DNA of 64,000 nucleotides from an uncultured Candidatus Saccharibacteria bacterium (GCA_964398865.1 CAYNOO010000001.1:43661-107660), one strand, 5' to 3'; positions 41,196 through 56,551 are shown, counted from the stretch's first letter. Notes: generated by a model not told the origin, from the letters alone. Program-made: numbers and translations.

Positions 41196-41199
41196 AATT

Positions 41200-41850
41200 T
41201 TAATGAGAAGCAGTCGATGCTGGGCAGCTTTGAACAGCCTCCCCAATCCCGGCACACCCGTTTGTTCCGGGCGCTAAAAACTTATTATCAATTCGGCACG
41301 TCAAAGTACATCCTGCTTTTAAAGTTCCCGTGTACGGCAATAAGTCAGTACCGCTCGGTAGCGTATTAGCGCCTGCAGCACCCAGACCTCCTGTGGCAAT
41401 ACTACTACCCAAAGGGACTGTTACGTTTGAACCGCTTCCCCCCAAGGCACTTAAGTCATCAGTGAGTGCCTTTAGATTGAGTATATTTGGATTAATGACG
41501 TTCAGTATGATATATGACAATAAAAGCAAAATGAGTCCGAACGCTGCGCCTTGGATGCCTTCCACGGCACTCTGCTTTTTCCCAATGACGTCAGAGGTCA
41601 TGTATTTCAAACCTTCGAACGTGATCATCACGACCCCAAGAATAGCCGCAATGCCAATGGAGAGCGTGAATACTGCATTTAGGTAGTCAGTAAGCGAGGT
41701 GCTTGCATTAACCGCGCTGCCAGTAGGAAGTGGTATGGAAACAATCGGCTGAAATTGAAATTGCCCAGGAGCGTCCGCAGCATGGGCAAGATGCGCCCCA
41801 CCGACGATGCTGGCAGTAAGTAAGATCAGAATGATGAGAGCTCGGCGCAT
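41200..41850 (-). CDS. VirB2/TrbC-like pilin candidate with Gly/Cys-rich C-terminal extension
   Basis: Signal peptide followed by two hydrophobic helices, the VirB2/TrbC topology. Sits next to a VirB4 gene. Confidence 0.3.
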   Translation of the reverse strand: MRRALIILILLTASIVGGAHLAHAADAPGQFQFQPIVSIPLPTGSAVNASTSLTDYLNAVFTLSIGIAAILGVVMITFEGLKYMTSDVIGKKQSAVEGIQGAAFGLILLLLSYIILNVINPNILNLKALTDDLSALGGSGSNVTVPLGSSIATGGLGAAGANTLPSGTDLLPYTGTLKAGCTLTCRIDNKFLAPGTNGCAGIGEAVQSCPASTASH

Positions 41851-41851
41851 A

Positions 41852-42823
41852 TCAAAATGTAAGTTGGAATGAAGCATCGGCATGCTCTAAGAATTTTTTT
41901 GCACTTTCAAACGAAACACTCACTGCGTGTGTACCGCTTCCGCCTCCGACTTTCCTGAACGTAGCCGCACGAGGTTTCAGAGGGTCCACCGCAAAGGGTA
42001 TGGTATCAAGATTCCACGTAAACGACACATCATTCAGATCACTTGCGAACATCGGATACGCAATGAATGAGACTTCTTCGTCTACAAACGGAAACAGCCC
42101 CGTGAGCGCTCGGTCAAAACGCATTCCAAGAAGAGGCGCGTTTTCGTAAATGATGACGGAAGGAGTCTGCGGTTCTATGCGCACGGAGTTTTCTGCAACA
42201 ATAGTACCGTCTCGCGTGCCCGCGACAACAGAGACATTGAATGCTGTCGCAAAACGCGGTGGTGTCATAGTTATGCTCGACTTTCCATACCCAGATTGTT
42301 TTTGTGTATACACACCATCTATTTTCCACGAATACACGAGAGAGTTCGCGGAAACTTCGTTGCCATTTGTAGTAAGGTGTGGAATCGCCATAATTCTGAC
42401 CGTGCTTTGCCCGCTCGGAAGAGGGCGCCCTATATATAAAGGTGGTGTATACGTAACCCCTTCCCAAACTATATCGACTGATGCTGGGCGGATGATTGCG
42501 ACAGCATCCCCTCTCGGGACACCGTTTTCAATCGCAACGACACGAATTGTTTGTGCAGCCCCCAAGGTCCCTGCAGTAATCGAAATCGACGTGTGATCGA
42601 CCCCTTGGTCAACGGTGGCGCCATTTACCAACCACATATAGGCAGTGGTGCCTGTCTCTTGTGCCGGGTCTGAGACGGTGAGCGTTACCGTGTTGCCGGG
42701 CACAGGATGTTCAGGGCTCACGCCTATTTCCAATACGGATCCAAAACTAGGTAAAAGTGCAGCCGCTGCAAAAGACGGTGCAATCAAGAGAGCACATACG
42801 ACAATAATCGCTTTCTGGAGCAT
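41852..42823 (-). CDS. secreted hypothetical protein of T4SS-like cluster
   Basis: Signal peptide, then 323 aa, beta-rich, no TM segment. Confidence 0.4.
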   Translation of the reverse strand: MLQKAIIVVCALLIAPSFAAAALLPSFGSVLEIGVSPEHPVPGNTVTLTVSDPAQETGTTAYMWLVNGATVDQGVDHTSISITAGTLGAAQTIRVVAIENGVPRGDAVAIIRPASVDIVWEGVTYTPPLYIGRPLPSGQSTVRIMAIPHLTTNGNEVSANSLVYSWKIDGVYTQKQSGYGKSSITMTPPRFATAFNVSVVAGTRDGTIVAENSVRIEPQTPSVIIYENAPLLGMRFDRALTGLFPFVDEEVSFIAYPMFASDLNDVSFTWNLDTIPFAVDPLKPRAATFRKVGGGSGTHAVSVSFESAKKFLEHADASFQLTF

Positions 42824-42917
42824 AGTACAAGGCTCATTATACGGGCGAGGATGCGGTTTCGAGCTCCCACTTTAGATTCTAGGGGAAATCACCCTTATGT
42901 AGAGACTTCGACCTATT

Positions 42918-44726
42918 CTATTCCGCTCCCTCTTTTTTCTCGCGAGCTATAGCCAAGAGTTGCGAAGGGTCAGAGGTAATTATCTGATCCTCAGTGTAGG
43001 AGGCGATGATTTTTATAGCTACGTGCTTAAGACCTGCAAAAAAGATGCCCTCCCCTACGTCTGACTCAAGGAGTAGATATTTTTCCTCTTCGGTCAAATT
43101 GAATGTTTTTTGTACGGCTTCTATGGATGTGGGCGACTGCTTTAAAAGAATCTGAATGGAGGAGTTTGTGAGCATTGGCAAGCCATAGGGGGATTTCAGG
43201 AAGTCCTCAACGTCCTGCGTGATGGTAGCGAGCCCGAGATAGTATTTTCTTCCACGCTTCGCCATGCCGTAGAGGAATGCAGCAGTGTCTTCCGACTTCA
43301 TCATCCACCACGCTTCGTCGATCACGAGAAGACGTTTGCGCAGATCTTTCCTGACCGCATTCCATATGAAGTGCGTGATGATGTACATGGCGATGGTCTT
43401 GAGCTCGTCCTCCATGTTACGAACCGAGAACGCTACGAACTTTTTGTTGATGTCGACGTTTGTTGGGCGATTGATGAAACCCGACCATGTGCCTTTGGTG
43501 TACTTTGTTATTCGCTGCACCAAAGACTCGCTTCCCTCCATGCCGGCAAGCACGAGTTCGAAGTCAGACAAAAGAGGCGGCTCCATGTTACTGAAATCAT
43601 TTGCCCCCGTTATGTCTTTCAGTGCGTATGTTTCAGTGATAGCCCTGTCTACGATGGCATCTTCCTCAGGAGTAAGACCACCGAGCATCAAGCGAAATAA
43701 TCCGACGAGGTTGATGATGTTTGAGCGAAGTATGTCAGCGGGCGATTCATCCTCGCGTGGCACCGGCAGGTCGAAAGGATTGATGCGGTTTTCTGATGAG
43801 AGCGATATGTTGAAGAATCTACCACCAACCGCGTTTGCCAGGTACTCGTATTCGCTTTCAGGATCTATAACAATGACTTCTGTGTCGAACATCAGTGACC
43901 GTAAGATTTCGAGCTTCGTGCCATATGATTTTCCGGAACCTGATTTTGCAAAAGTTACTGAGTTATAGTTTTCCAAAGAAAACCTATCAAAGAGAATGAG
44001 AGATGAGTTGTGTCTGTTGATGCCATAGAGAATCCCCTTGTCGCTCGTCAGGTCGAACGATATGAACGGGAAGAAGCTTGAGAGCGGAGCAGAATTCATT
44101 TTTGAGTTAACCGCGAGCTGGTCATCCCCTATCGGTATGACACTCTTGAATCCTTGCTCTTGCTGGAAGAGTGCTGGCTTTATATAGACGAGCTTAGCGT
44201 CCAGGATTGAACGCATTTCCGCCTCCGTCTTATCGAGCTCATCCTGGTTTGTTCCATAAATAGATATATAGAGCCCCACATCAAACACACGCTCTTGTGC
44301 TTGCTGGAGCTGGTTTCTGAGTTGCTCGATGTCTTGGTATGCCGTATCGAGCATCGGGTCGCGCACCATGCCTTTTTCTTGGCGCGTCATGATTTGGCTC
44401 TGCACCTCTGCGACTTTTTTCTGGAACTTCCGCAGGATTGCTGCTGTGTCGACAGGATGAATGAAAATAGAGATGTCCAACACTCTGTCGCGGTTGATGA
44501 TGGGAGCGAACCACGTTCCCGATAAGAAACGTGGGTATGAAATTACATAAAAGGTGCGGACGAGCTTATCACCCAAGTTCATCTCGCGCGGTGTTATTTT
44601 CAACGCTGAGGGCGCAATAATGTCTGCAAAATCAAGCTTCGCCGCTTCGTAAATGTCTTTCGGCAGGAACGGCGTTAGCTCCTGCTTCTTTTTTTCTCCA
44701 CCAGTTAGAAAATCAAGTATTGCCAT
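42918..44726 (-). CDS. virB4: VirB4/TrbE-family type IV secretion ATPase
   Basis: Walker A FAKSGSGKSY, Walker B LLVIDEAWWMM (the DEAW motif typical of VirB4/TraC), VirB4-type N-terminal domain. Confidence 0.8.
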   Translation of the reverse strand: MAILDFLTGGEKKKQELTPFLPKDIYEAAKLDFADIIAPSALKITPREMNLGDKLVRTFYVISYPRFLSGTWFAPIINRDRVLDISIFIHPVDTAAILRKFQKKVAEVQSQIMTRQEKGMVRDPMLDTAYQDIEQLRNQLQQAQERVFDVGLYISIYGTNQDELDKTEAEMRSILDAKLVYIKPALFQQEQGFKSVIPIGDDQLAVNSKMNSAPLSSFFPFISFDLTSDKGILYGINRHNSSLILFDRFSLENYNSVTFAKSGSGKSYGTKLEILRSLMFDTEVIVIDPESEYEYLANAVGGRFFNISLSSENRINPFDLPVPREDESPADILRSNIINLVGLFRLMLGGLTPEEDAIVDRAITETYALKDITGANDFSNMEPPLLSDFELVLAGMEGSESLVQRITKYTKGTWSGFINRPTNVDINKKFVAFSVRNMEDELKTIAMYIITHFIWNAVRKDLRKRLLVIDEAWWMMKSEDTAAFLYGMAKRGRKYYLGLATITQDVEDFLKSPYGLPMLTNSSIQILLKQSPTSIEAVQKTFNLTEEEKYLLLESDVGEGIFFAGLKHVAIKIIASYTEDQIITSDPSQLLAIAREKKEGAE

Positions 44727-44728
44727 AA

Positions 44729-45400
44729 TTATTCAACAGGAGCGGGTTGTTCCATAACGATAGGTTTTTCTAATTCTCCTGGATTGAACTCTCTGTAGAG
44801 AAGCTCTATCACTTCTTCGGTGCCAAGAGGAACCGTCCGTACACCAGTGCGAGCGAGTCCTTGCTCCACTGTTCCCATTCTTTGTTCTAGTTGGGTGCGA
44901 TGTTCTTCGAAACCAATAGTGCTTTCGTCGCGCGACGAGAGATTTGTTTTTCCGAAAATTTTGTTCTGCACCGCTTTCTTTACATCCAGCATCGGCGGCG
45001 AGTACGGAATAACGATGAAAAAATGCTTGCTCATAATATTTGCGCGTTCGATGAACGTCTTTATAAATTCTATATATTCACGCACCTGTATTTTCATTAG
45101 CTCTTCTGTCTGCGCCTTTAGACGTTCATCGAGAAGCGCGATGTAGGGTCGTATATCCAATTTTCTGGACTGCACGAAAAACTGAACGCTAAAATCTAGT
45201 GAATTCATAAAACTCTGGAACTGGGCGAGGATAGCATTCTGCTCGTCCTCGGATTTGAGTGCAAAGTTGATGGATGATGCAAGCATTACCCCTACGAGCG
45301 TGCCGCTTTTCATCACCATCACTCCCCCACGGACTTCTTTCACTGGAACGAAATCCTGCGCCGCCTTTGTTTTTTTTGTCTTCTCATCTCCTCCAGCCAT
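44729..45400 (-). CDS. hypothetical protein with VirB4 N-terminal-domain-like region
   Basis: 223 aa. KEVRGGVMVMKSGTLVGVMLASSINFALKSEDEQNAILAQFQSFMNSL...VQFFVQSRKLD mirrors the pattern at the N-terminus of VirB4 proteins. No NTPase motifs. Confidence 0.3.
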   Translation of the reverse strand: MAGGDEKTKKTKAAQDFVPVKEVRGGVMVMKSGTLVGVMLASSINFALKSEDEQNAILAQFQSFMNSLDFSVQFFVQSRKLDIRPYIALLDERLKAQTEELMKIQVREYIEFIKTFIERANIMSKHFFIVIPYSPPMLDVKKAVQNKIFGKTNLSSRDESTIGFEEHRTQLEQRMGTVEQGLARTGVRTVPLGTEEVIELLYREFNPGELEKPIVMEQPAPVE

Positions 45401-45414
45401 AGATATAGGTTTTA

Positions 45415-45424
45415 GGTGTCAGGT
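45415..45424. repeat. left inverted repeat (aggtgtcagg) flanking the four-helix-bundle gene
   Basis: Perfect reverse complement of 45800-45809. Confidence 0.6.
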
Positions 45425-45790
45425 CCCAGCTTTCAGGGAAGAAAGTAATTTTGAAAGCATCATTCTTATCTCAAGAATTAAACGCCCTGCTTCATTATAG
45501 TCTGCTTTCTGAGCGTAGAAGAGATCCTCGGCAATGATTAACTGGGTATCTAGTTCCGCTAAAGATCCAAGTGCAAAATATAGGAATTGAATAAAATCTT
45601 TCTTGCTTCGTCTACCTCTACCTTCTGCGATATTTGAGGGCACAGAAACCGCGGCTCTTTGCATTTGTGATGCAAGACCATACCATTCTTCCGGAGGAAA
45701 TTTTTTTGATATTCTGTAAATATGTGAAACTAGGGTAATGCTTTTTTGCCAAACAATCAGATCTTTATATGACTTTATGTTCCTATCCAT
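45419..45790 (-). CDS. four-helix-bundle protein (Avd / 23S rRNA intervening-sequence protein family)
   Basis: YKDLIVWQKS...FPPEEWYGLASQMQRAAVSVPSNIAEGRGRRSKKDFIQFLYFALGSLAELDTQL is the hallmark of the PF05635-type four-helix-bundle family. Confidence 0.7.
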   Translation of the reverse strand: MDRNIKSYKDLIVWQKSITLVSHIYRISKKFPPEEWYGLASQMQRAAVSVPSNIAEGRGRRSKKDFIQFLYFALGSLAELDTQLIIAEDLFYAQKADYNEAGRLILEIRMMLSKLLSSLKAGT

Positions 45791-45799
45791 CTTCTTCAA

Positions 45800-45809
45800 C
45801 CTGACACCT
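45800..45809. repeat. right inverted repeat (cctgacacct) flanking the four-helix-bundle gene
   Basis: Perfect reverse complement of 45415-45424. Additional partial repeats (ctttcagg at 45430-45437 and cctgaaag at 45807-45814). Confidence 0.6.
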
Positions 45810-45828
45810 GAAAGCGGAAACCTGAAAC

Positions 45829-46266
45829 CTATTGTTGCTTTTTATCCGAATACACACTCTCTTTGATGTCTAAACTCCACGCTAAGTCTTTTATTTTGTT
45901 TGCTGTTGCTGACGGGACGTACTTTGCCGGATCTTCAGCTTGCGTTTGCCCAGGGAGCATAATTTCTTCAGGGAGCACGGTTTTTGATTGTTTCTTTTCC
46001 CAGATGTAGAGTTTGGTGCGAAAAAGATACTGAAAGCCGGACTCAAGGGCGTTAACAAGCGGTCGATCGTTAATTTTATAGAACGCAAGAGCTGCGCCTA
46101 AAAGTGCGACAGGTCCGCCAATAAGTACCGCAATCCAGTGTGGTGCTATAAGCCATAAAGCAACCAAAAACCCGCCTCCTCCAACCAAGTACACGAATTG
46201 CACTGCAGTGAGAGGACCAAAAATTTTATCTTCAACCTCGACAAATTGCGGTACTTGAAATTGCAT
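45829..46266 (-). CDS. PrgI-family (VirB3-like) T4SS membrane protein
   Basis: MQFQVPQFVEVEDKIFGPLTAVQFVYL N-terminus followed by two TM helices, as in PrgI/VirB3-like proteins of Gram-positive T4SSs. Confidence 0.45.
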   Translation of the reverse strand: MQFQVPQFVEVEDKIFGPLTAVQFVYLVGGGGFLVALWLIAPHWIAVLIGGPVALLGAALAFYKINDRPLVNALESGFQYLFRTKLYIWEKKQSKTVLPEEIMLPGQTQAEDPAKYVPSATANKIKDLAWSLDIKESVYSDKKQQ

Positions 46267-46268
46267 AG

Positions 46269-47060
46269 TTATTCAACAGGTTCTCGATAGGGATCAACCC
46301 CTCCTTTATATGCGGGTTTTGAAGGCGGGGGTGTTGTAGATAGTTGTTTTGACTCGACCTCTGCCGTTTCAGGCTGGATTTCTACGGTAGGGTTGGAAGT
46401 AGTTTGTGTTTGAGATGGTACACCGAGTTTTTGCTCCACTATGCTCGGGATAGTCTGATCTCCTAGGACAGTAGAATCGGATGCTTCCTCTATGTCCACG
46501 TCGTCTTCGTCGGTTTCTGGGATAATCGGGTCCTTTTTCGCTTGTTCCAATGCGAATGCCAACTCCTTCTTGTTTTCCTCGTCCCTCTTTGCGGCTTCCG
46601 CTCGATCCTTTTCGTATTCTGCCAACAATCTCGGATCATCATCTGGCATATTTTCTATCTCTTTGCGTCTTACCTCCTCGGCGCGCTCTTCTTCCGAGAG
46701 TTCCGGCTCCGAGGGCTTTTCGGTCCATACGCTCGGCTCGGGTATATTTTCCTTGACGCGACGAGACGCTTCCTTGAAGACACGATCATTGATATCGGCA
46801 ACGAGTTCCCGCGCCCCCTGATTGGATAGTTCATGCATCGCTTGGTGCAAGTTTGTTTCGAGCGCAGACTCGCTTTCAAGACCCAACAAAGTCAGGTTTG
46901 CGATCTCGGTGAAGAGAAGCAGTTGTCGTAAGTTCAGAGCATGTTTTTTCTGTATGCCGATATAGATATTCGTCAGCGACGTGGAACCTAAAAAATCATA
47001 AAGCGGCTTCGGCAACTTCTTTTTTGCTTCCTCTCTTTCTCCCTGCGTGTGCGATTTCAT
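46269..47060 (-). CDS. acidic hypothetical protein of T4SS-like cluster
   Basis: 263 aa, highly charged and disordered central/C-terminal region. No family recognised. Confidence 0.4.
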   Translation of the reverse strand: MKSHTQGEREEAKKKLPKPLYDFLGSTSLTNIYIGIQKKHALNLRQLLLFTEIANLTLLGLESESALETNLHQAMHELSNQGARELVADINDRVFKEASRRVKENIPEPSVWTEKPSEPELSEEERAEEVRRKEIENMPDDDPRLLAEYEKDRAEAAKRDEENKKELAFALEQAKKDPIIPETDEDDVDIEEASDSTVLGDQTIPSIVEQKLGVPSQTQTTSNPTVEIQPETAEVESKQLSTTPPPSKPAYKGGVDPYREPVE

Positions 47061-47074
47061 ATGCTATTTCTGAT

Positions 47075-50000: not shown

Positions 50001-51379
50001 GTCTTGTTTTGGTCAAAACGATTTCGCGCTGCCCATTCTCTGTATCGAGGGGCCAACCAGTCCGCGGTGCCTCCTATAGCCTGCCGTGCTGCAATCGCCC
50101 CAGTGAATTTCAATCCTGTCGTATACGCTTTCGGCATCCAGCCTGTGAGTTGGTTGGATGCCTTGTATATGTCGGCGAACTGTTTTGCTCGCTCACTCAA
50201 GTCTTTTGCTACTTTAAGCGACTGCAACATGAATATTGCGGCGACAATGAAGGTAAGCATCAATCCGATGATACTTTCGGCGCTCGCTGTTGCGCTAAAG
50301 ATTGCGTCTTTTGAGCTTCGTATGATGGTGAAAGAAAAACCCACAAGAAGAAAATAGACAGGGGCAAAAAATGCCTGGCTGAAAAGCGCCTCCCACCACT
50401 CTTTTGCATACTTGCTTGTGGTGGGAAGCATAAAAGCGACTATGCCAACAGGCGACGTAATAAGAACCAAGATAAGCGCAACAAATCGACCAACTAAAAG
50501 AGAGATTGCAGATAAGAAGATGAAAATGGTGACTAATTCAAATATCAAAAGCAGAATGTCGAACACCAGTTTGTTCAACATTCCGTCATTGCTTACCACC
50601 TTCACCCCTTCTGAGGTCGCGCTGATTGATGTCCAGTTGTTCATCAGAGTGCCTTCGTTGTCTCGGAGTCCTTGGATGTTTACGAGTCCCATGAAGGTGC
50701 TCGCGAGGTTACATTTATTGTTATCCGCGCAATCTTTATCTGCTGAAATGACACTCTGGTAGATTTTGGTAGCGAGAAAATTGGAAGAATCTATGACTGC
50801 GCCAGCGAAGAAGTAGCTGAAATTTACTAAAATTGCACCAATAATGAGCTTCGCCAGTACGTTCTTAGCGTTTACATTCTTGAGGTGAAGAATGGTGCCG
50901 ATGGCTATAGCAACGAGCCCACCGATGATGGCGATGTTCGCAAGGTCGCGCATTATTCCCCAAGCGGTGCGAACTCCTTGCGCTGATGAGGATGTCACGT
51001 AGCGTCCCATTTGCACGACCATTTGGTCTATCACAAAGTTGAAAAATGAACCCAAGATCGCTAGGAAAAAAGTGACTATGCGGATTAGTATTTCAAAGAT
51101 AAACGCAATGACATTCAGAATGGTGTTTCCTAGTGCTCCGAGAACTGCATCTATTGCCATGCTCCCGATTTGTCCTTGGTTCTCGTTGTATGTCTGCGCT
51201 GCCTCTGCGTTCGCTGCCGCCATCTCTGGGGCCACTGTTGCAAGACCGCCTGGTGATCCTTGGTCCCCCCCAGTATTATCAAGAGCAAAAGCCGCTCCCG
51301 TAGGTACCATTACCCCCGCGAGTGCAACGAGTATAGAGAGGATAACGAAAACTTTTCTCATGCTTAATATTGCTGACAC
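47075..51379 (-). CDS. giant VirB6-like polytopic membrane protein with ~1000-aa hydrophilic extension
   Basis: 1434 aa. Signal peptide, then about 430 aa with multiple TM helices (VirB6/TrbL/ConG-like). A charged repeat-containing domain follows (LTAAEQNELDELRKKD, LTAREVARLAELGKK and LTAKERGRLTDLEN repeats). Near the C-terminus there is a Gly/Pro-rich stretch. Confidence 0.5.
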   Translation of the reverse strand: MSAILSMRKVFVILSILVALAGVMVPTGAAFALDNTGGDQGSPGGLATVAPEMAAANAEAAQTYNENQGQIGSMAIDAVLGALGNTILNVIAFIFEILIRIVTFFLAILGSFFNFVIDQMVVQMGRYVTSSSAQGVRTAWGIMRDLANIAIIGGLVAIAIGTILHLKNVNAKNVLAKLIIGAILVNFSYFFAGAVIDSSNFLATKIYQSVISADKDCADNNKCNLASTFMGLVNIQGLRDNEGTLMNNWTSISATSEGVKVVSNDGMLNKLVFDILLLIFELVTIFIFLSAISLLVGRFVALILVLITSPVGIVAFMLPTTSKYAKEWWEALFSQAFFAPVYFLLVGFSFTIIRSSKDAIFSATASAESIIGLMLTFIVAAIFMLQSLKVAKDLSERAKQFADIYKASNQLTGWMPKAYTTGLKFTGAIAARQAIGGTADWLAPRYREWAARNRFDQNKTPVLGAMLRAGDRWAQERLAQAKGQKFFGFDDYGSVKEKRKAREVELGEVEKDEKQRAELNGTWTRDEKKLYKALKKKAGAGILTAAEQNELDELRKKDPKTLTAREVARLAELGKKLTVDEKKKMEELDERKREGGALGKMDRMENAFSAEYAAGNERLRIGQDRLEELRTKAKSGALLAHEKAELQNLEKLNTEGKVNREGRLETWSEFWDRQESRGELGRKHLFKGELDDLKAKGLAGTLTAKERGRLTDLENANPDEGAGEDKWAYHERMDAAKLDGKNSYRKSRTDAEAIYASISSGFWEREYDKDPKSIIKLAKILPNSQWLEVRKDPKIRRDIKNAMIKSRYGVWAQNVRNIQRNVDSGEFLEGGEVYGANTLALFNDQKKNIPTSDEMQDLLLSDAVFDESTGERFQDLRKLAVFPQVFSSSVFADIKDKKLLPTTEQRDFGSEKRRPLDRVRDQQAGAYMLFGLQSRDHLPYEDGTVNYHGAERAVKWAEETLNENGKTQRLINKARFDPNSVSQSDLRLAESNQRYAKMVIAAQKEGFNPLQSEVDRRIANINEAEYREYEAKGIKREELRDAKRLQVMTEAKNRYLEAQRNGTLDDPATREAFLQDPANFAIHRFVQTEEATRGYYRGKNPREIKAIFNNRTWWSTNTPIGVDADQLQSLEGQDIAERQEFFAQLLTRGDDSMIANYAGNEHMKSIFGWPTPERIRRINLWRQAMNKAPLPEVFSEEAITASFGGETPEPPTGRGPGGGGGPTFTPGGGGPRGPTPSAPEPVNVPGFVPPSDFSAPEPFEDGGVDTDTTFTERQAADIAEAEAAERNRGGVPIDPGSSSNDYSVAPTDEAPVAEAPTVTTQAAPTQAAPEPTLSPEDYFNSFDRNVPYSEEQIRKAESYMSDWTDDQIVTLPPRIITLALPGIKRPSTVLKILERYGSNADMRRSIIAGFKELDRRGKLTGDIARMVRSWENPV

Positions 51380-53304
51380 TGAATGAGCGCTGTATTCGCT
51401 TCCGTTGTCATTCCATCAAGAAGTGTTTTTGACGCGTCACGATCGTTATCGAGCGCGGCAAGGTCAGATTGGGTGTGGATTGTGCCGTATGCGCCAAATT
51501 CGCTATATGCTTGAGCAAGAGAATTTATTTCGGCAGATGTAGCTGCGTTTTCGATTTGAGTCTGTAGCGATTCAAGAGATGCAGATGTTGTTTGTGAATT
51601 ATCGAATGCGATTGATTGCAAGGCTATTTGGGGTGCGATGACAGTTTGTACTGTCGAAGACGCCTGATTGAACTGTATCGTTGCCCCCGCGACATCGATA
51701 CCAACTCCCCCTCCTTGCCCAATGAGGGTTTGGTAGCAAGCTTGCACCGCGGAGTAAGCGCTTTTTGTGCTTTCCAGATTGAAGAGCATAGCGGCAAGAG
51801 TGACTTGGTATGCATATTCAATTTCAAGAGCATCGTTCACACTGTTGCGAAGGGTAGTTTGTGCTTGCGAAATGAGCGCACCCTGACTATTCCCCGCCAC
51901 GCTATCCAAGTACGAACCTTGCCCGGTCGAACTCTTTTGAGAAAGTCCACTCAAACCTTTAAGGCTCGTGAACGCTTGCTGCGCAAGTTGCGCGAAGAGC
52001 GAATCAACCAAGTCTCCAATCTCACTTGCACGTGCCTGCTGTTCATACCCAGCTCTGACTCCTGTTTGGAGCGTGTCATTTGCAACAGTTGCAGGTCCGA
52101 CGATTCTGTATCGTACGCACTGCTGAAGCGGTTTCCCTGATCCGCCCGGATCAAGACACTCTATTTTTGGTAGAATGCCCTCAGCCTGCTGGTTGAGTTG
52201 TTGTTGTTCAGTGAGTCTACTTGCTATACTCGTGCGCTCTTGCCCTGTTGCTGCTAATGAAGCTCCTACTGGCGTGCATTGTGGGTGATACACCAACGTG
52301 TTCATGAGCATCGCGAAGCCTCCTTTAGAAAAATCCTTTAAGAACTCATCCGTTCCTTGCACCGGGCATCTCAGCGAGGATTGTGTGTCGGCTTGATATT
52401 GATCATTAACTTGACGCTGCACTCCGGGTAAGAGCTTGGGGTCAAGCCCGCTGTTAGGGAGAACGTTCTTTATAAAATCCATGTGTATTGCATCACTCAA
52501 TATCGCGTTGTCGTTCGCGAGATTTTGGGAATAGATTGGAAGACCGCCGTTTCCCGTATTTGAATCGGCAATGACGGTTTTGGAGAAGTCCGCAGCAAAT
52601 GCATGACTCGTTTGTCGAACTAAAACATTTTGAACGCAGGTAACGTCAAGCTGTGTATCCTGATCAGTTTGTATCTTTTGCGTGTTTCCTTGAATTCTTT
52701 GTGAAGTGCTTCGCACCTGAGCATCATTAACCGGCACTTCGCTCCCACCGAGCGCGCCAGTCACCACCCCTAAAGGACCGCCCGTAACGCTCCCAAGAGT
52801 ACTACCCAAGTTACCTCCGAGGAGGTTTCCAAGAGACCCGCTGATGTTTCCGCCGCCGAGCAAGTTGCCGGCTATATTTCCCAAGCTGGAGCCGTTGAGG
52901 ATGCTGCCAATGTTTCCGTTGCCGCTAAGTAAGCTAGAAATAATCTGACCCGCCTGACTTCCTCCGGTGATGGTGCCAATGACCCCGCTTATATTCCCTC
53001 CTTGGATACTACTTAAAAGAGAACTGATATTGAATCCTTGAGGAAGCTGTCCGAACATGCTTGAACCGATACCTCCGAGCGATCCTCGCGCATCTGATTT
53101 ACAGCCTGCAACCTCTCCACTCTTGGTGCCGCTCGTAAGATCAGAGAGTGGGGTTACCGTATCCAAATTTAAAGTTTCTTGAGGGAGAGGTGTGATTGGT
53201 CCTAAGTCATCAAAAGGAAGAGCTGTGATGACATCATCAGCATGTGTTACTGCTGGCAACGTAGTTACGAGAATCAGGGCGAAGATTAAGAAAATGTTTT
53301 TCAT
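51364..53304 (-). CDS. secreted Gly/Ser/Asn-rich repeat protein (possible surface/adhesin component of T4SS-like cluster)
   Basis: Signal peptide. GNISG / LLGGN / LGS short repeats over residues ~90-200. No TM segment. Confidence 0.4.
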   Translation of the reverse strand: MKNIFLIFALILVTTLPAVTHADDVITALPFDDLGPITPLPQETLNLDTVTPLSDLTSGTKSGEVAGCKSDARGSLGGIGSSMFGQLPQGFNISSLLSSIQGGNISGVIGTITGGSQAGQIISSLLSGNGNIGSILNGSSLGNIAGNLLGGGNISGSLGNLLGGNLGSTLGSVTGGPLGVVTGALGGSEVPVNDAQVRSTSQRIQGNTQKIQTDQDTQLDVTCVQNVLVRQTSHAFAADFSKTVIADSNTGNGGLPIYSQNLANDNAILSDAIHMDFIKNVLPNSGLDPKLLPGVQRQVNDQYQADTQSSLRCPVQGTDEFLKDFSKGGFAMLMNTLVYHPQCTPVGASLAATGQERTSIASRLTEQQQLNQQAEGILPKIECLDPGGSGKPLQQCVRYRIVGPATVANDTLQTGVRAGYEQQARASEIGDLVDSLFAQLAQQAFTSLKGLSGLSQKSSTGQGSYLDSVAGNSQGALISQAQTTLRNSVNDALEIEYAYQVTLAAMLFNLESTKSAYSAVQACYQTLIGQGGGVGIDVAGATIQFNQASSTVQTVIAPQIALQSIAFDNSQTTSASLESLQTQIENAATSAEINSLAQAYSEFGAYGTIHTQSDLAALDNDRDASKTLLDGMTTEANTALIQCQQY

Positions 53305-54056
53305 GTTTTCTTTTGAAGTGTTGTGATGCTTGCCAAGAGAACCTCCATGCTGTTTGTAACGTAACTTTGTGCTTTGTTGAATGTGTCCACGTCAGAGAGA
53401 GCTACTATGGGGTCACCTTTCCAGCGCGCCATGTTCTCAACTGCTTTTGCTAACGCACCGACACTCTTCACTGCCTCTAAGTGTTGTGGTGCGAGTTTTG
53501 CGGGCACTTCCATTACTAAAAGCGACGCGGCAATTTTTTTGTACAAGTCAGCAGTTTTTTGAAGTTCAGGCGTTCCGTTCGCGTTGTTATTTATGACGCT
53601 CTCGGTGAAGAGTGTGACTTCATATTTTTTTACTGTGCTTGCTTGGCTTACGATGACCGTTAAGAGCTTCACGTACGTATCCAATGATGTTTCATCGTTC
53701 ACATTCAAATCATTGAGTGTGATTATCGGCACTATTGCGGGATTTGAAACATGTTTTTTTGTTAGCTCAGCAAGCATGGCGTCCCTTTCCGCTGCAGTGA
53801 ATGTGCCACTTTGAGTCAGGTCAATATAGTTATTGTAGAGATCTAGAGAAAGCGCCTCCGTGACATTGTCAGAGGGAGAACCAGGAGCAGAGCTTGAAAC
53901 TTCACGCCAATCTTTGAGTGTTACTCCGCTCGGTAGCGAGTTTCCTTTGGGCTGATTTTGGAAATAATAGAAAGAGGCAGCTCCTATTACGACAAGCGCA
54001 AATATCACTGCGAAAAAAGACCCCCCCCATTTATTTCGGGCTTCCATTCTGCTCAT
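53301..54056 (-). CDS. membrane-anchored protein (VirB8-like position), hypothetical
   Basis: N-terminal TM segment (FFAVIFALVVIGAASFYYF), then about 220 aa periplasmic domain. First gene of the minus-strand cluster. Confidence 0.35.
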   Translation of the reverse strand: MSRMEARNKWGGSFFAVIFALVVIGAASFYYFQNQPKGNSLPSGVTLKDWREVSSSAPGSPSDNVTEALSLDLYNNYIDLTQSGTFTAAERDAMLAELTKKHVSNPAIVPIITLNDLNVNDETSLDTYVKLLTVIVSQASTVKKYEVTLFTESVINNNANGTPELQKTADLYKKIAASLLVMEVPAKLAPQHLEAVKSVGALAKAVENMARWKGDPIVALSDVDTFNKAQSYVTNSMEVLLASITTLQKKT

Positions 54057-54127
54057 AAGTATAACCTTACATATAAAGGACATAGTCCTTTATATGTCTT
54101 TATGGGGATTAGCGGAGATACTATTTA

Positions 54128-54162
54128 AAATAAAAAAACACCTGTGATTTTAAACAGGTGCT
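54128..54162 (-). terminator. rho-independent terminator (minus strand)
   Basis: cacctgtttaaaatcacaggtg hairpin followed by a T-run on the minus strand. Confidence 0.65.
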
Positions 54163-54194
54163 TTCCCTAGCCGAATCAAATTTATTAGGAGTTT

Positions 54195-54383
54195 TTAGTG
54201 TCTACGTCCGAATGTTTTGTTCCAGACCCCCTTTCCTACCATCCATACTACTAAAGCGTCCAGCGCAAGACCGAGAGCCTCTCTGTTTTCTTGAAGAAGT
54301 TTCCCGGCGCTTTCAGTAACTTCACCTGTCCCCCCAACGAATGCCGGACCCAAGGAGCCCGCAGCCTCTATTAATTGCATCAT
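54195..54383 (-). CDS. small hypothetical protein
   Basis: 62-aa ORF with its own downstream terminator. Confidence 0.3.
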   Translation of the reverse strand: MMQLIEAAGSLGPAFVGGTGEVTESAGKLLQENREALGLALDALVVWMVGKGVWNKTFGRRH

Positions 54384-54509
54384 ATGATTTCTAAGTAATT
54401 TTTATTAAATAACTCATTCCCAGCGCTCTATATGGCTAGCGTGAAGATTACGTGAGAATATTCACACCCTACCTCATAAAATACAAAAGTCAAGTTTTCG
54501 CCTCTTTTC

Positions 54510-54719
54510 TTAGCGCAAAGGAGCGTCTTGTCGTAAAAAAGCCTTATAATCAGGCATTTTTTCCTTAGCGGAGAAATGCGGAGCGGATTCTTGGTTCGCT
54601 TCAGGGTTTGAGGAGGCATATCCTAAAAATGCAGCTGCAGCCAGTGCTCCAAGCCCTATTAAAGTTGCTTTACGGGGATTTTTTACTACGTGGTTCCAAC
54701 AATTTTCTATTCCACTCAT
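54510..54719 (-). CDS. small membrane protein
   Basis: 69 aa with a single TM segment (LIGLGALAAAAFLGYA). Confidence 0.3.
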   Translation of the reverse strand: MSGIENCWNHVVKNPRKATLIGLGALAAAAFLGYASSNPEANQESAPHFSAKEKMPDYKAFLRQDAPLR

Positions 54720-54796
54720 ATTTATTGAAAGGAGTATACCCTAAAAACAAAAAATAGTGACAAAATAAAGCATACTCTAATACGGCGAGCTATAGT

Positions 54797-55657
54797 GTGG
54801 GAATGTTGAAGCGTTTATTCTCTCTTGCCTTCGTCATTTTTCTCTTCTCCCCTATTGCAGCGTTTGCTATAGGCGGTCCGTTCGGCGGACCTATGCTCAG
54901 TCCCCCGACGCCATGTATTGACCCTCCTGGTTCTTATATGTTTACGCTCGGTCCCCCTTCCGCTGGGGTATATAAATACATCCCCGGGGTTTCGGTCACA
55001 TACTTATTTGGTCCTCCCAAGACTGTTGGTCAGTTGTTGTTGGGAAATTTTATGCCAGGAATATGTACAAAACCGGGAACACCGCCTGTCCCTGTTCCGG
55101 TGTTTGTTATTACAGCTGAGGGCTCAAGCGGTCCCGCTAAGCCCGTAACGCCGCCAAAGCCCGCACCCGCAAGAACGGAGTGCGTCGATGGCGCCTTCAA
55201 TCTTTCAAGTAGTGCGGGTAAGGCACAAGGAGAAGCAAATATCCGACAGATTTTTTCCGAATCTGGAATCCCAGTGAATAAAGGTGCGTGTGGACTTAAT
55301 AAAACTTTTCAGAGCACTGCGGGAGGTTGTACTGACGTAAGTGGATTGCAGTGCCAGGCAGTTTCATATTTGCAATCGCTCCAAACTCTTTGTGGTAAAA
55401 ATTCTCTGCTTATCACCGGTGGCAGCGAAGCAGGGCACGGTAGCCATATCGTCGGCAACAAAGTGGACCTTTCGTCTGGGGGAGCGAGTTTCAATAATCA
55501 ACTTTCACAATGTATTAAAAGCAATTTTACGTTTGATCCTTCACGAGGTGTTTGGGTAGATAGAAAGACAGGCTCTACGTTCCTTGCTGAAGGTGCAGGA
55601 CAAACTAGAAATACGACAGGGGTTCACTGGCACGTGTGTATAGGCAGAGGTTGCTAA
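54797..55657 (+). CDS. secreted protein with C-terminal LAS-type (M15-like) zinc peptidase motifs, candidate cell-wall hydrolase
   Basis: Signal peptide, Pro-rich linker, then SHIVGNKVD (H-x6-D) and HWH (H-x-H) motifs. Confidence 0.45.
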   Translation: MGMLKRLFSLAFVIFLFSPIAAFAIGGPFGGPMLSPPTPCIDPPGSYMFTLGPPSAGVYKYIPGVSVTYLFGPPKTVGQLLLGNFMPGICTKPGTPPVPVPVFVITAEGSSGPAKPVTPPKPAPARTECVDGAFNLSSSAGKAQGEANIRQIFSESGIPVNKGACGLNKTFQSTAGGCTDVSGLQCQAVSYLQSLQTLCGKNSLLITGGSEAGHGSHIVGNKVDLSSGGASFNNQLSQCIKSNFTFDPSRGVWVDRKTGSTFLAEGAGQTRNTTGVHWHVCIGRGC

Positions 55658-56451
55658 TGGAGTTCTTTCGCAATGGTGAGCCACGTCTCTAGACTCACGT
55701 CTTCGGCGCGAACACGCGCATCGAGCGCAAGATTTTCCCACGCGCCTTCTACTTGAGTTGCAGGGAATTTCTTTTTCAAATTTCCTAAAAGCGTTTTTCT
55801 TTTCTGACCGAATCCGATTTTTAGAATTTCAAAGAATTTTTCTTCAGATATCTTTTTAAAATTCTTTCCATTAATTTCGGTGATAGCAAGAATTGCTGAA
55901 TCAACCGATGGAGGTGGGTTAAAACTTCCTCTCGAAACTGTTTTTACGTATTTAGGAATGCCGTATGCTTTCACCGAAAGTGACAAAATGCTTTCTTTCT
56001 TACTTCGTGCAATTCTTTCTGCAACTTCTTTTTGTATTAGAAACGCGAGTGAGACGGGTTTATTTTTTGCAGTGAGGCATGAGCGAATGAGTTCTCCGGT
56101 TATGTAGTACGGAATATTTGCGGCGACTTTGTACGCGCCTTTCGGAAATAGTTTGTCGGGAGTTAGTTCTCTCGCATCTCCCTCATGAATCACTAATCGT
56201 GCGTCTCGGATCTCCTCCGCGAATCTCTCACAGAGAACAGCAACCATCGCCCGATCTTTTTCAACAGTAGTCACCGTTGCCCCAAGCGCGAGAATCTCCC
56301 TCGTGAGCATTCCTTTCCCTGGACCAATTTCTAACACCTTGTCTCCGGCTTTGATACCTGCGGCGCTCGCCACAGCGCTCGCTATCCCTATGTTCGTGAG
56401 CAAGTGCTGACCAAGCTTTGCCCCCCGAGGTTTTTTTCTGTTGTTCTTCAT
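55654..56451 (-). CDS. rsmA: 16S rRNA (adenine1518/1519-N6)-dimethyltransferase
   Basis: LGQHLLTN start and VLEIGPGKGMLT SAM-binding motif. Confidence 0.88.
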   Translation of the reverse strand: MKNNRKKPRGAKLGQHLLTNIGIASAVASAAGIKAGDKVLEIGPGKGMLTREILALGATVTTVEKDRAMVAVLCERFAEEIRDARLVIHEGDARELTPDKLFPKGAYKVAANIPYYITGELIRSCLTAKNKPVSLAFLIQKEVAERIARSKKESILSLSVKAYGIPKYVKTVSRGSFNPPPSVDSAILAITEINGKNFKKISEEKFFEILKIGFGQKRKTLLGNLKKKFPATQVEGAWENLALDARVRAEDVSLETWLTIAKELH

Positions 56452-56511: not shown

Positions 56512-56551
56512 GCTCCAGAGACTATACGATTAATCGTATAGTCTCTGGAGC
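56512..56551. repeat. perfect 40-bp palindrome between uvrD and rsmA
   Basis: gctccagagactatacgattaatcgtatagtctctggagc is its own reverse complement. Confidence 0.7.

What the first reader, a model, noticed from the sequence alone, without database searches (positions are those of the whole stretch)
41200..55657. Gram-positive-style minimal type IV secretion-like cluster lacking coupling protein and relaxase
Seen directly, on the minus strand in order: a membrane-anchored protein, a secreted Gly-rich repeat protein, a 1434-aa VirB6-like protein, an acidic protein, a PrgI/VirB3-like protein, the four-helix-bundle cassette, a 223-aa protein with a VirB4-N-terminal-like region, a VirB4 ATPase, a secreted protein and a VirB2/TrbC-like candidate. 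A LAS-type peptidase gene is divergently oriented. No VirD4/TraG-like ATPase, relaxase, oriT-like nick site or integrase is in or near the cluster. Chromosomal housekeeping genes (jag, rsmA, uvrD) flank it. Inference: this is a chromosomally fixed T4SS-like apparatus, as proposed for episymbiotic small-genome bacteria (DNA uptake or host interaction), rather than a conjugative element.
Basis: partly seen in the sequence, partly recalled or inferred. Interest (0 to 1): 0.65.

Follow-up and report, generated by a model that had tools for sequence, protein, structure and literature searches.

The report
Patescibacterial chromosomal type IV secretion cluster
This is a real but already described kind of machine: the origin-proximal, relaxase-less type IV secretion system that ultra-small Patescibacteria keep in their chromosome, probably to interact with the host cells they live on.

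Summary
On the minus strand at 39981-54083 lies one co-oriented block. It contains a VirB4 ATPase split into a TrsD-like N-terminal gene and a 602-aa ATPase gene, PrgI/VirB3, an extended VirB6/TrbL protein and a VirB2-like pilin. It also holds five unannotated envelope or acidic proteins and one inserted four-helix-bundle gene. No coupling protein, relaxase, integrase, nearby tRNA gene or flanking repeat occurs anywhere in the 64-kb window. The cluster sits about 3 kb from dnaA/dnaN, and it keeps that position in 41 of 42 related Paceibacteria loci.

Three refinements came out of the work:
- A 406-424-aa anchored protein at 39981-41255 also belongs to the cluster, being present in 42 of 42 loci.
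- VirB4 evolves more slowly than DnaA, while the exposed proteins evolve about 20 times faster.
- The divergent 286-aa gene carries a C-terminal domain that, in most homologues elsewhere, is fused to the T4SS pilin. Pilin-position genes in related loci carry VanY, M15, NlpC/P60 or CHAP domains.

The "LAS peptidase" call rests on motifs and one weak Pfam hit, with no fold confirmation.

The parts
39981..41255 (-). It is a 406-424-aa bitopic protein with an N-terminal TM segment and a probable beta-propeller ectodomain. The likely true start gives 406 aa, ending near 41201.
   Evidence: Positional orthologue in 42 of 42 full-flank loci. One TM-like segment at residues 15-50. The family profile gives a weak TolB propeller hit, E=0.05, and one family member hits DUF5050. 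The window protein itself has no Pfam hit.
41200..41883 (-). VirB2-like T4SS pilin: signal peptide, two TM helices, and an 85-aa Gly/Cys-rich C-terminal tail with no enzyme domain.
   Evidence: PF18895 T4SS_pilin at 6.6e-7, 29.8 bits, above the 26.6 cutoff. TM pattern. Present in 40 of 42 loci. 61 of 69 pilin-position proteins hit PF18895.
41852..42823 (-). 323-aa secreted protein, probably three Ig/PKD-like beta-sandwich domains. Universal accessory component.
   Evidence: Present in 42 of 42 loci. N-terminal signal-like segment. The family profile hits the Ig-like Hoc protein at 1.3e-3 and an Ig-type antigen receptor at 2.5e-3. Members hit Ig_3, PKD_3, PKD_6 and BiPBP_C.
42918..44726 (-). 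VirB4 ATPase (602 aa) lacking its first ~170 residues. Walker A is AKSGSGKS and Walker B is LLVIDEAW; both are intact.
   Evidence: NCBIfam CD1110 VirB4 family, 1e-110, 371 bits against a 325 cutoff. Pfam P-loop_TraG 1e-21. PDB 4ag5 VirB4 C-terminal domain, 7e-44. Motifs read from the sequence. Median 76% identity across 42 loci. dN is 0.012 against the closest relative.
44729..45400 (-). TrsD-like protein (223 aa). It is the detached N-terminal region of VirB4, translationally juxtaposed to the ATPase gene.
   Evidence: NCBIfam TrsD/TraD 4.5e-9, and positions 2-118 of the CD1110 VirB4 model. TAA stop followed by TT-ATG. Homologues carry PF26593 TraC-like. Present in 42 of 42 loci.
45419..45799 (-). 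Four-helix-bundle (23S rRNA IVS protein / Avd-like) gene. It is a variable insertion and not part of the machine.
   Evidence: PF05635 1.5e-39. Absent at this position in the closest relative L083, where the PrgI-TrsD gap is 75 bp. Present in only 5 of 42 full-flank loci, or 11 of 82 overall, always co-oriented and most often close to PrgI. Single copy in the window.
45829..46266 (-). PrgI/VirB3-like two-TM protein (145 aa).
   Evidence: PF12666 PrgI 4.2e-8, 34 bits against a 27 cutoff. Present in 42 of 42 loci.
46269..47060 (-). 263-aa cytoplasmic protein of unknown role. It has a ~110-aa N-terminal domain followed by an acidic, Pro/Glu-rich tail.
   Evidence: pI 4.7; the tail has pI 4.3 and 18% Glu. 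No Pfam, NCBIfam or PDB hit. Positional homologues in 41 of 42 loci by iterated profile search.
47075..51379 (-). Extended VirB6/TrbL-like polytopic membrane protein (about 1430 aa). It has a signal-like segment and about 7 TM segments in residues 1-400, followed by a ~1000-aa hydrophilic extension. That extension has a Lys/Glu-rich region, a Pro/Gly-rich linker and a C-terminal domain.
   Evidence: PF04610 TrbL 1.1e-7, 32.2 bits against a 25.9 cutoff, at residues 171-385. TM map and composition. Homologues in 41 of 42 loci with a median length of 773 aa, so the extension is lineage-specific. The extension has no Pfam or PDB hit.
51364..53304 (-). 646-aa secreted protein. It has a disordered Gly-rich N-terminal third and a long helical-bundle C-terminal domain, and it evolves fast. 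Candidate surface or tip component.
   Evidence: Signal-like segment, 11% Gly, pI 4.5. In the AF2 model, residues 1-236 are low-confidence and residues 475-645 form helices at pLDDT 83-93. Foldseek against the PDB gave no significant hit and no VirB5. Identity is 75% in the genome whose VirB4 is 99% identical, and 44-57% in genomes at 96-98%. Found in 41 of 42 loci by profile.
53301..54083 (-). 238-260-aa bitopic protein: an N-terminal TM anchor and a mostly helical ectodomain. Not VirB8-like by any test run here.
   Evidence: One TM-like segment at 18-42. Found in 37 of 42 loci by profile. The profile search against the PDB found nothing relevant. Eleven of the 100 pooled accessory-family members hit TSP3_bac repeats; the tool does not say which family they belong to, and assigning them to the tm260 family is my inference.
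54195..54383 (-). Small 62-aa ORF upstream of the cluster, followed by a terminator-like hairpin. It is conserved only in the closest relative. Membership in the system is uncertain.
   Evidence: 82% amino-acid identity to a called 62-aa gene in L083, although synonymous sites between the two genomes are saturated. Hairpin at 54167-54132. No Pfam hit.
54797..55657 (+). Divergent 286-aa secreted two-domain protein. The N-terminal domain (residues 1-125) is a stand-alone small gene upstream of many related clusters. The C-terminal domain (residues 140-286) is a putative Zn hydrolase of M15/LAS type. Elsewhere that domain is mostly fused to the T4SS pilin.
   Evidence: N-domain: 23 hits in the related loci, nearly all divergent from the cluster; about 17 are stand-alone ~100-145-aa genes, and the rest are domains of larger proteins. 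C-domain: fused to the pilin in 7 loci. Of 113 representative homologues, 61 carry PF18895 and 9 carry TrbC. The S-H-x2-G-x3-D and H-W-H motifs contain invariant H214, D224 and H277. Family member L047 combines T4SS_pilin with Peptidase_M15_4, E=2.6e-3, below the cutoff. The window protein has no Pfam, PDB or Foldseek hit.

Best explanation
**What it is (near certain).** This is the chromosomal, vertically inherited type IV secretion system typical of Patescibacteria. It is derived from the monoderm (MPF-FATA) conjugation machinery and lies about 3 kb from dnaA in a Paceibacteria (Kaiserbacteria-like) genome.

**How it is built (shown by homology).** A single motor, VirB4, is split into a TrsD-like piece and a 602-aa ATPase. 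The motor docks on a membrane platform of PrgI/VirB3 and an extended VirB6. A VirB2-like pilin supplies a surface filament or conduit.

**Additional conserved parts.**
- An Ig-like secreted protein.
- A propeller-like anchored protein.
- A helical anchored protein.
- A Gly-rich helical secreted protein.
- An acidic cytoplasmic protein.
- A wall-active enzyme domain. Here it is on the divergent 286-aa gene; in related genomes it is fused to the pilin.

**What it does (inferred).** It is not a conjugation apparatus, because it has no coupling protein, relaxase or origin of transfer. I think it most likely forms a contact-dependent conduit to the host cell. The hydrolase module would open peptidoglycan. 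VirB4 would drive assembly of the pilin and the movement of macromolecules. The direction is more likely import of host material (nucleic acids or other polymers) than export. The substrate and the direction are not shown by any result here.
For: **Component identities.**

**A genuine, conserved VirB4 split.**

**Organism and spread.** More than 8000 VirB4 homologues were found, and the top 120 are 83-99% identical. Every hit that carries a source name is labelled Patescibacteria, Paceibacteria or Kaiserbacteria. Among 600 pattern matches in reference genomes, 587 stretches encode a relative.

**Fixed position next to the origin.** dnaA, dnaN and yidC lie within 10 kb in 41 of 42 loci. Gene order is identical in L083, L001 and L002.

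**All accessory genes are positional orthologues.** They occur in at least 37 of 42 loci.

**No mobility genes or features.**

**Constraint pattern against the closest relative.**

| Protein | dN |
|---|---|
| VirB4 | 0.012 |
| DnaA | 0.028 |
| DnaN | 0.089 |
| Pilin, p323, p424 | 0.24-0.26 |

At greater distance, VirB4 keeps 76% median identity while DnaA keeps 52% and DnaN 37%.

**Wall-enzyme link.**
- The C-terminal domain of the 286-aa protein is mostly a pilin fusion elsewhere.
- Pilin-position genes in related clusters carry Peptidase_M15_3 (8.5e-16), VanY (4.4e-11), NlpC/P60 (4.7e-7) and a weak CHAP hit.
- In L053 and L082 the enzyme domain lies C-terminal to a T4SS_pilin domain in the same polypeptide.

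**Literature.**
- The same architecture, lack of relaxase and proximity to dnaA are described in PMC12102498.
- The T4SS and its pilin genes are essential for epibiotic growth, while comEC is dispensable, in PMC10633639 and PMC12857230.
- Tubular structures that the authors suggest may be T4SS pili were seen at a parasite-host interface, together with uptake of host RNA, in a 2026 preprint.
Against: - Nothing here shows the substrate or the direction of transport.
- Only 64 kb of the genome is visible. PMC12102498 reports VirD4-like genes far from virB4 in many Patescibacteria genomes, so a distant coupling protein cannot be excluded.
- No VirB8-like component was found. The channel model is therefore incomplete.
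- A pilin with a long C-terminal tail, or with a fused enzyme, may not polymerise into a pilus at all.
- The hydrolase assignment for the window's own 286-aa protein is motif-level only. Foldseek found no LAS or M15 structure.
Confidence: 0.6

Rival explanations
1. Effector-export machine. The system injects or releases proteins (toxins, hydrolases, host-manipulating factors) into or onto the host bacterium. This would resemble the coupling-protein-less Ptl and Brucella VirB systems, or bacteria-killing T4SSs.
For: Wang et al. suggest that the lack of coupling protein and relaxase means the system 'may instead export proteins'. Several fast-evolving secreted proteins are encoded in the cluster. 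T4CP-less protein exporters exist (PMC12857230).
Against: The secreted cluster proteins have Sec-type signals, and this is a monoderm cell. Sec alone would release them, so a T4SS is not needed for that step. No effector-like toxin or immunity pair, and no recognisable secretion signal, is present in the window. These organisms have extreme auxotrophy, which argues that acquisition is the function under strongest selection.
Confidence: 0.22
2. Pilus-only organelle. VirB4 acts solely as a pilin dislocase or assembly motor for an adhesive filament that holds the epibiont on its host, with no translocation through the machine.
For: There is a VirB2-like pilin and no coupling protein. Ig-like and propeller-like surface proteins suit adhesion. 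The exposed parts are variable.
Against: The same window also encodes type IV pilus genes, PilM and a PilB-type ATPase, which already supply adhesion in Saccharibacteria. An extended VirB6 channel protein and PrgI are universally retained. Many pilin homologues carry bulky enzyme domains, which fits a wall-processing role better than a simple fibre.
Confidence: 0.1
3. Decaying integrative conjugative element. The cluster is the remnant transfer module of an ICE that has lost its relaxase, coupling protein and integrase.
For: VirB4 belongs to the CD1110 family of conjugative-transposon ATPases, and the TrsD/PrgI set is typical of Gram-positive conjugative elements. A variable four-helix-bundle cassette has been inserted into the operon.
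Against: The cluster occupies the same origin-proximal position with the same gene order in 41 of 42 related genomes. All reading frames are intact. VirB4 has a lower dN than DnaA. There is no compositional step, no tRNA gene, no repeats and no recombinase.
Confidence: 0.03

Closest known systems
Patescibacteria-clade T4SS (Quiñonero-Coronel et al. 2025, PMC12102498; Southlakia epibionticum SEML1_0006-0019, Wang et al. 2023, PMC10633639)
   Same: The component set is the same: VirB4, an adjacent TrsD, PrgI/VirB3, VirB6 and a VirB2-like pilin. There is no relaxase and no nearby T4CP. The location is chromosomal, next to dnaA/dnaN/rnpA/rpmH/ksgA, as reported for Paceibacteria.
   Different: This locus has a single pilin rather than the pilin arrays of Saccharimonadia. 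Its VirB6 is unusually long (about 1430 aa against a median of 773). A four-helix-bundle gene is inserted between PrgI and TrsD. The wall-enzyme domain is detached from the pilin onto a divergent gene. The text searches I ran on the papers found no mention of the five conserved unannotated partners or of the pilin-enzyme fusions.
MPF-FATA conjugative systems of Gram-positive plasmids and ICEs (pGO1/pSK41 TrsD-TrsE, pCF10 PrgI/PrgJ/PrgH/PrgK, CTn2 CD1110)
   Same: VirB4 scores above the CD1110 family cutoff. A separate TrsD-type N-terminal protein is present, as in pGO1. PrgI is present. The architecture is monoderm, with no VirB7/9/10 core. A membrane-tethered peptidoglycan hydrolase is a module of the system.
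   Different: There is no relaxase, no T4CP and no recognisable VirB8-like protein (PrgL, TraM or TcpC type). A VirB2-like pilin is present, which those systems lack. The locus is not on a mobile element.
T4CP-less uptake systems: Helicobacter ComB and the archaeal Ced system
   Same: They work with a VirB4-type ATPase, a VirB6-like channel protein and small pilin-like proteins, without a coupling protein or relaxase. They move DNA inwards.
   Different: There is no family-level membership. CedB scores 30.9 bits against a cutoff of 700, and CedD 16.8 against 600. ComB is a diderm system with a VirB7-10 core. In Southlakia, transformation depends on comEC and type IV pili, not on the T4SS.
Extended VirB6 proteins (e.g. 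Rickettsiales; reviewed in PMC12857230)
   Same: A polytopic VirB6 core is followed by a large hydrophilic C-terminal region of unknown role.
   Different: The extension has no detectable sequence similarity to anything. It is lineage-specific within Paceibacteria.

Membership tests
Patescibacteria-clade chromosomal T4SS | VirB4 of MPF-FATA type whose nearest relatives are patescibacterial | tested here: met
   CD1110 family, 371 bits against a 325 cutoff. PDB 4ag5, 7e-44. The top 120 of more than 8000 hits are 83-99% identical, and every hit that carries a source name is labelled Patescibacteria, Paceibacteria or Kaiserbacteria. No formal phylogeny was built.
Patescibacteria-clade chromosomal T4SS | TrsD-like gene adjacent to virB4 | tested here: met
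   NCBIfam TrsD/TraD 4.5e-9. The gene lies immediately upstream, with a TAA stop followed by TT-ATG.
Patescibacteria-clade chromosomal T4SS | PrgI/VirB3, VirB6 and a VirB2-like pilin near virB4 | tested here: met
   All three score above their Pfam gathering scores.
Patescibacteria-clade chromosomal T4SS | No relaxase and no coupling protein in the neighbourhood | tested here: met
   There is no such domain in any scanned ORF of the 64-kb window. The rest of the genome is not visible.
Patescibacteria-clade chromosomal T4SS | Conserved chromosomal position near dnaA, dnaN, rnpA, rpmH and ksgA (Paceibacteria pattern) | tested here: met
   dnaA lies at 36724-38109 and rsmA at 55654-56451. The same context occurs in 41 of 42 loci.
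Patescibacteria-clade chromosomal T4SS | Required for epibiotic growth | not testable with these tools
   Shown only for Southlakia, by Tn-seq.
Conjugative element (ICE or plasmid transfer module) | Relaxase plus oriT | tested here: not met
   No relaxase domain is present in the window. oriT was not searched for separately.
Conjugative element (ICE or plasmid transfer module) | VirD4/TcpA-type coupling protein | tested here: not met
   None is present in the window. The rest of the genome is untested.
Conjugative element (ICE or plasmid transfer module) | Integrase, att repeats, tRNA target, atypical composition | tested here: not met
VirB8-like (PrgL/TraM/TcpC, NTF2-like) component | Bitopic protein with an NTF2-like ectodomain | tested here: not met
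   There was no Pfam VirB8 or PrgL hit. Family profiles of the three bitopic or secreted candidates found no VirB8, TraM or TcpC structure in the PDB. No structure model was made for them.
VirB5-like pilus-tip protein (for the 646-aa protein) | Helical-bundle fold matching TraC/VirB5 | tested here: not met
   The AF2 model has a confident helical bundle at residues 475-645. Foldseek against the PDB gave only generic helical matches, with E at least 0.5.
LAS / peptidase M15 (for the C-terminal domain of the 286-aa protein) | H-x6-D and H-x-H zinc-binding motifs | tested here: met
   The window protein has S216-H217-x2-G220-x3-D224 and H277-W-H279. H214, D224 and H277 are invariant, and H217 and E265 are conserved in at least 90% of 113 homologues.
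LAS / peptidase M15 (for the C-terminal domain of the 286-aa protein) | Significant match to an M15-family profile | tested here: inconclusive
   The window protein has no hit. One family member (L047) hits Peptidase_M15_4 at 7e-4 to 2.6e-3, 18.7 bits against a 25 cutoff. None of the 113 representatives hits at E of 0.01 or better.
LAS / peptidase M15 (for the C-terminal domain of the 286-aa protein) | Hedgehog/DD-peptidase fold | tested here: inconclusive
ComB/Ced DNA-uptake T4SS | Family-level homology of the ATPase or channel protein | tested here: not met
   CedB scores 30.9 bits against a 700 cutoff, and CedD 16.8 against 600.

The most novel reading that the evidence does not exclude
The cluster may be the epibiont's feeding organelle. 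In this reading, VirB4 drives a conduit whose pilin carries or recruits a peptidoglycan-cleaving module. That module is fused to the pilin in many Paceibacteria and split onto the divergent 286-aa gene here. It would breach the host wall so that host nucleic acids or other polymers can be imported. This would explain two observations. VirB4 is more conserved than DnaA, and every exposed part evolves about 20 times faster. The pilin-enzyme fusions would then be the missing VirB1 equivalent of these systems.
Probability: 0.25. Interest if true: 0.8.

Novelty: new member of a known kind. Interest (0 to 1): 0.3.

Why it matters
The system itself is established in the literature, so this locus adds one more example rather than a new biological kind.

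Its value lies in three details that could guide experiments on a machine whose function is still unknown:
1. A defined conserved set of 11 genes for Paceibacteria, five of them unannotated.
2. A strong asymmetry in evolutionary rate. The motor is more constrained than DnaA, and the surface parts change fast. This is what one expects of an essential host-contact device.
3. Domain-fusion evidence that wall-active enzymes (M15/VanY, NlpC/P60 and CHAP on individually confirmed proteins; YkuD and SLT from a pooled scan only) are physically tied to the VirB2-like 'pilin'. This suggests where the missing VirB1 function resides. It also raises the question of whether these 'pilins' form a pilus at all.

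Tried and rejected
**Look-ups that returned nothing**
- Exact-sequence look-ups of window proteins, and of the 100%-identical P0121, in the gene-position index found no record. I therefore could not walk beyond the window or see the rest of the 127,744-bp source contig.

**286-aa protein**
- A PDB sequence search, a family-profile search against the PDB, Foldseek against the PDB and tblastn against phage genomes looking for M15 endolysins all returned nothing.

**VirB5 hypothesis for the 646-aa protein**
- The model has a confident helical bundle, but Foldseek gave only generic coiled or helical matches. The hypothesis is rejected as unsupported.

**VirB8 hypothesis**
- It was tested on the 260-, 323- and 424-aa proteins by profile-against-PDB searches. 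None matched.

**VirB6 extension and small ORFs**
- No Pfam or PDB hits.

**Other negative searches**
- The 710-bp upstream spacer has no Rfam family.
- There are no tandem repeats in the cluster.
- The intergenic DNA is too diverged to define the boundaries of the four-helix-bundle insertion.

**dN/dS**
- Synonymous sites are saturated even against the closest relative. I therefore compare only dN values and make no claim of positive selection.

Full report

Yes. ORF listing and translation show ten co-oriented minus-strand genes between 41200 and 54083 and a divergent plus-strand gene at 54797-55657, as described.

Four proteins match their Pfam family above the curated threshold:
- T4SS_pilin, 29.8 bits against 26.6, in the 227-aa protein.
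- PrgI, 34 against 27, in the 145-aa protein.
- TrbL/VirB6, 32.2 against 25.9, at residues 171-385 of the 1434-aa protein.
- P-loop_TraG/AAA_10 in the 602-aa protein.

NCBIfam places the 602-aa protein in the CD1110 VirB4 family (1e-110, 371 bits against a 325 cutoff), aligned to model positions 177-733. The 223-aa protein matches TrsD/TraD (4.5e-9) and positions 2-118 of the same VirB4 model. The two genes are separated by TAA followed by TT-ATG. The split is therefore genuine and not a frameshift or a recoded stop.

VirB4 matches the solved VirB4 C-terminal domain 4ag5 at 7e-44. Its Walker A (AKSGSGKS) and Walker B (LLVIDEAW) motifs are intact in the sequence. The 126-aa gene is a 23S_rRNA_IVP four-helix-bundle protein (1.5e-39). 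A simple hydropathy and composition analysis confirms the 'anchored', 'secreted Gly-rich' and 'acidic' labels.

**2. Surroundings**

The window is ordinary chromosome from a very small genome. The genes identified are:
- dnaN (35391-36491), dnaA (36724-38109), yidC and jag (38766-39972).
- The cluster itself.
- rsmA (55654-56451), uvrD, an M23/LysM peptidase and comM.
- Further away: PilM, a PilB-type ATPase, PolA, RuvABC, PBP1, tRNA genes and biosynthetic genes.

None of the ORFs scanned (all of at least 300 aa and most of 150-300 aa) has a VirD4/TraG, relaxase or recombinase domain. G+C content does not change across the cluster. The nearest tRNA gene is 17 kb away. The only direct repeats are short chance-level pairs.

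**3. Whose genome, and is the locus fixed?**

The VirB4 search returned more than 8000 homologues. The best 120 are 83-99% identical and all about 600 aa long. Every hit that carries a source name is labelled Patescibacteria, Paceibacteria or Kaiserbacteria. A scan of one genome per species gave 587 relatives, of which 80 loci were retrieved.

Three relatives, with 99%, 96% and 86% VirB4 identity, show the same gene order. In each, the cluster is followed by jag-yidC-rnpA(-rpmH)-dnaA-dnaN. In 42 loci with full 10-kb flanks, dnaA, dnaN and yidC are present in 41.

Iterated profile searches over the ORFs of these loci show that every cluster gene has a positional homologue in at least 37 of 42 loci. 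This includes the unannotated 260-, 646-, 263- and 323-aa proteins.

The four-helix-bundle gene is the exception. It occurs in 5 of 42 full-flank loci (11 of 82 overall) and is absent from the closest relative at this site. It is always co-oriented and most often lies close to PrgI. It is a recent insertion and not a component of the machine.

**4. Already known**

Quiñonero-Coronel et al. 2025 (PMC12102498) describe this system across Patescibacteria:
- A monophyletic VirB4 clade related to MPF-FATA.
- TrsD as the most frequent partner.
- PrgI/VirB3, VirB6 and VirB2-like pilins.
- Almost no relaxases, and T4CP homologues rarely near virB4.
- In Paceibacteria, proximity to dnaA, dnaN, rnpA, ksgA and rpmH.

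Wang et al. 2023 (PMC10633639) showed by Tn-seq that the equivalent locus in Southlakia (genes 0006-0019, also beside the origin) is essential for epibiotic growth. A 2025 review restates this. A 2026 preprint reports tubular structures, which its authors suggest may be T4SS pili, at a parasite-host interface, together with uptake of host RNA.

**5. What this analysis adds**

*(a) Evolutionary rates.* Against the closest relative, synonymous sites are saturated, so only dN is comparable.

| Protein | dN |
|---|---|
| VirB4 | 0.012 |
| DnaA | 0.028 |
| TrsD | 0.031 |
| PrgI | 0.082 |
| DnaN | 0.089 |
| VirB6 | 0.110 |
| Acidic protein | 0.156 |
| Gly-rich protein | 0.165 |
| Anchored 260-aa protein | 0.176 |
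| Pilin, Ig-like, propeller-like | 0.24-0.26 |

Across 42 loci, VirB4 keeps 76% median identity, against 52% for DnaA and 37% for DnaN. The Gly-rich protein is only 75% identical in the genome whose VirB4 is 99% identical, and 44-57% identical in genomes at 96-98%. The pattern is an extremely constrained cytoplasmic motor with rapidly changing exposed parts.

*(b) Accessory folds, all weakly supported.*
- The 323-aa protein looks like Ig/PKD-type repeats.
- The 406-424-aa protein looks like an anchored beta-propeller.
- The 646-aa protein has a disordered Gly-rich third and a confident helical bundle at residues 475-645. It has no significant structural neighbour and no VirB5 match.
- No VirB8-like candidate emerged.

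*(c) The divergent 286-aa gene.* It has two domains.
- The N-terminal domain gives 23 hits in the related loci, nearly all divergent from the cluster. About 17 are stand-alone genes of about 100-145 aa, and the rest are domains of larger proteins.
- The C-terminal domain (residues 140-286) has conserved S-H-x2-G-x3-D and H-W-H motifs.
- In seven retrieved loci this C-terminal domain is fused to the C-terminus of the pilin.
- An exhaustive search found 211 cluster representatives. Of 113 scanned, 61 carry T4SS_pilin and 9 carry TrbC/VirB2.
- Independently, the pilin-position genes of related clusters carry recognised wall-active domains: Peptidase_M15_3 (8.5e-16), VanY (4.4e-11), NlpC/P60 (4.7e-7) and a weak CHAP hit.
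- A pooled scan adds YkuD (6e-12) and a weak SLT hit, but the proteins behind those two were not examined individually.
- Explicit coordinates place the enzyme C-terminal to the pilin domain in L053 and L082.
- This is strong guilt-by-fusion evidence that the 286-aa gene belongs to the system and supplies its wall-processing module.

The specific LAS/M15 label for the window protein remains motif-level:
- The protein has no Pfam or PDB hit of its own.
- One family member hits Peptidase_M15_4 below the cutoff.
- Foldseek found no match for a moderate-confidence model.
- My text searches of the key paper and of the library found no mention of pilin-enzyme fusions. Absence from those searches does not prove novelty.

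**6. Mechanism**

*Shown by homology:* a monoderm-type T4SS core consisting of split VirB4, VirB3-like, VirB6-like and VirB2-like proteins, with no conjugative DNA-processing genes in 64 kb.

*Inferred:*
- The machine makes a host-contact conduit or pilus.
- The hydrolase module opens peptidoglycan, either the cell's own for assembly or the host's.
- VirB4 powers pilin extraction and the movement of substrate.

I favour import of host macromolecules for four reasons:
- Other coupling-protein-less VirB4 systems, ComB and Ced, are importers.
- A monoderm cell does not need a T4SS to release Sec substrates.
- These organisms cannot make nucleotides.
- The motor is conserved like a core housekeeping gene.

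Effector export and adhesion-only readings remain open. An ICE remnant is effectively excluded.

**7. Verdict**

This is a correct and well-described finding of a known system, so it is a new member of a known kind. Interest is modest at 0.3. The score is above the floor only because of the fusion evidence linking wall enzymes to the T4SS pilin and because of the striking rate asymmetry.

Noticed in passing
window 45419-45799 (-); L001 7987-8379 and 8921-9301; L042, L043, L045, L047 and others: A 23S-rRNA-IVS-type four-helix-bundle gene has been inserted repeatedly inside the T4SS operon. It is always co-oriented and most often lies close to PrgI, and it occurs in 11 of 82 loci. The closest relative, L083, lacks it at this site. 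The window has only this one copy. Upstream of it lies a short run of CAGGT-like repeats.
   Followed up: partly
window 44724-44740 and 46264-46280: The same 17-nt string (minus strand CCTGTTGAATAAYTATG, reading '...PVE-stop-TT-ATG') forms both the TrsD/VirB4 junction and the acidic-protein/PrgI junction. It may be a shared translational-coupling signal, or it may be coincidence.
   Followed up: no
window 54018-54796: The spacer of about 710 bp between the cluster and the divergent gene is not empty. About 550 bp of it are 78% identical in DNA to L083, which is as conserved as the coding genes. It holds a 62-aa ORF (54195-54383) that is 82% identical in protein, followed by a terminator-like hairpin at 54167-54132. 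It also holds a weaker small ORF with a TM segment (54510-54719). In L001 the spacer is only 85 bp. There is no Rfam or Pfam match.
   Followed up: partly
window 12580-13803, 27532-29211 and 60639-62141: The window also carries type IV pilus genes (PilM and a PilB/T2SSE ATPase) and comM. This genome segment therefore encodes both envelope machines that have been implicated in the epibiotic lifestyle and in competence.
   Followed up: no
window 16229-16951 (-): A 240-aa ORF matches the alternative oxidase family (PF01786, 9e-11). This is unexpected in a lineage that is said to lack a respiratory chain.
   Followed up: no
window 47075-51379 (-), residues about 500-720: The Lys/Glu-rich part of the VirB6 extension contains several loosely repeated motifs of the form G-x-LTA-x-E-x3-L-x2-L. 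The whole extension of about 1000 aa is absent from most related VirB6 homologues, whose median length is 773 aa.
   Followed up: partly
window 56512-56551: A perfect 20+20-nt palindrome lies between uvrD and rsmA. It is probably a terminator.
   Followed up: no
window 58863-59840 (+): An M23 peptidase with LysM domains lies three genes beyond the cluster. PMC12102498 counts such proteins among VirB1-like hits near virB4 in Paceibacteria. It is present within 10 kb in only 7 of 42 related loci.
   Followed up: partly
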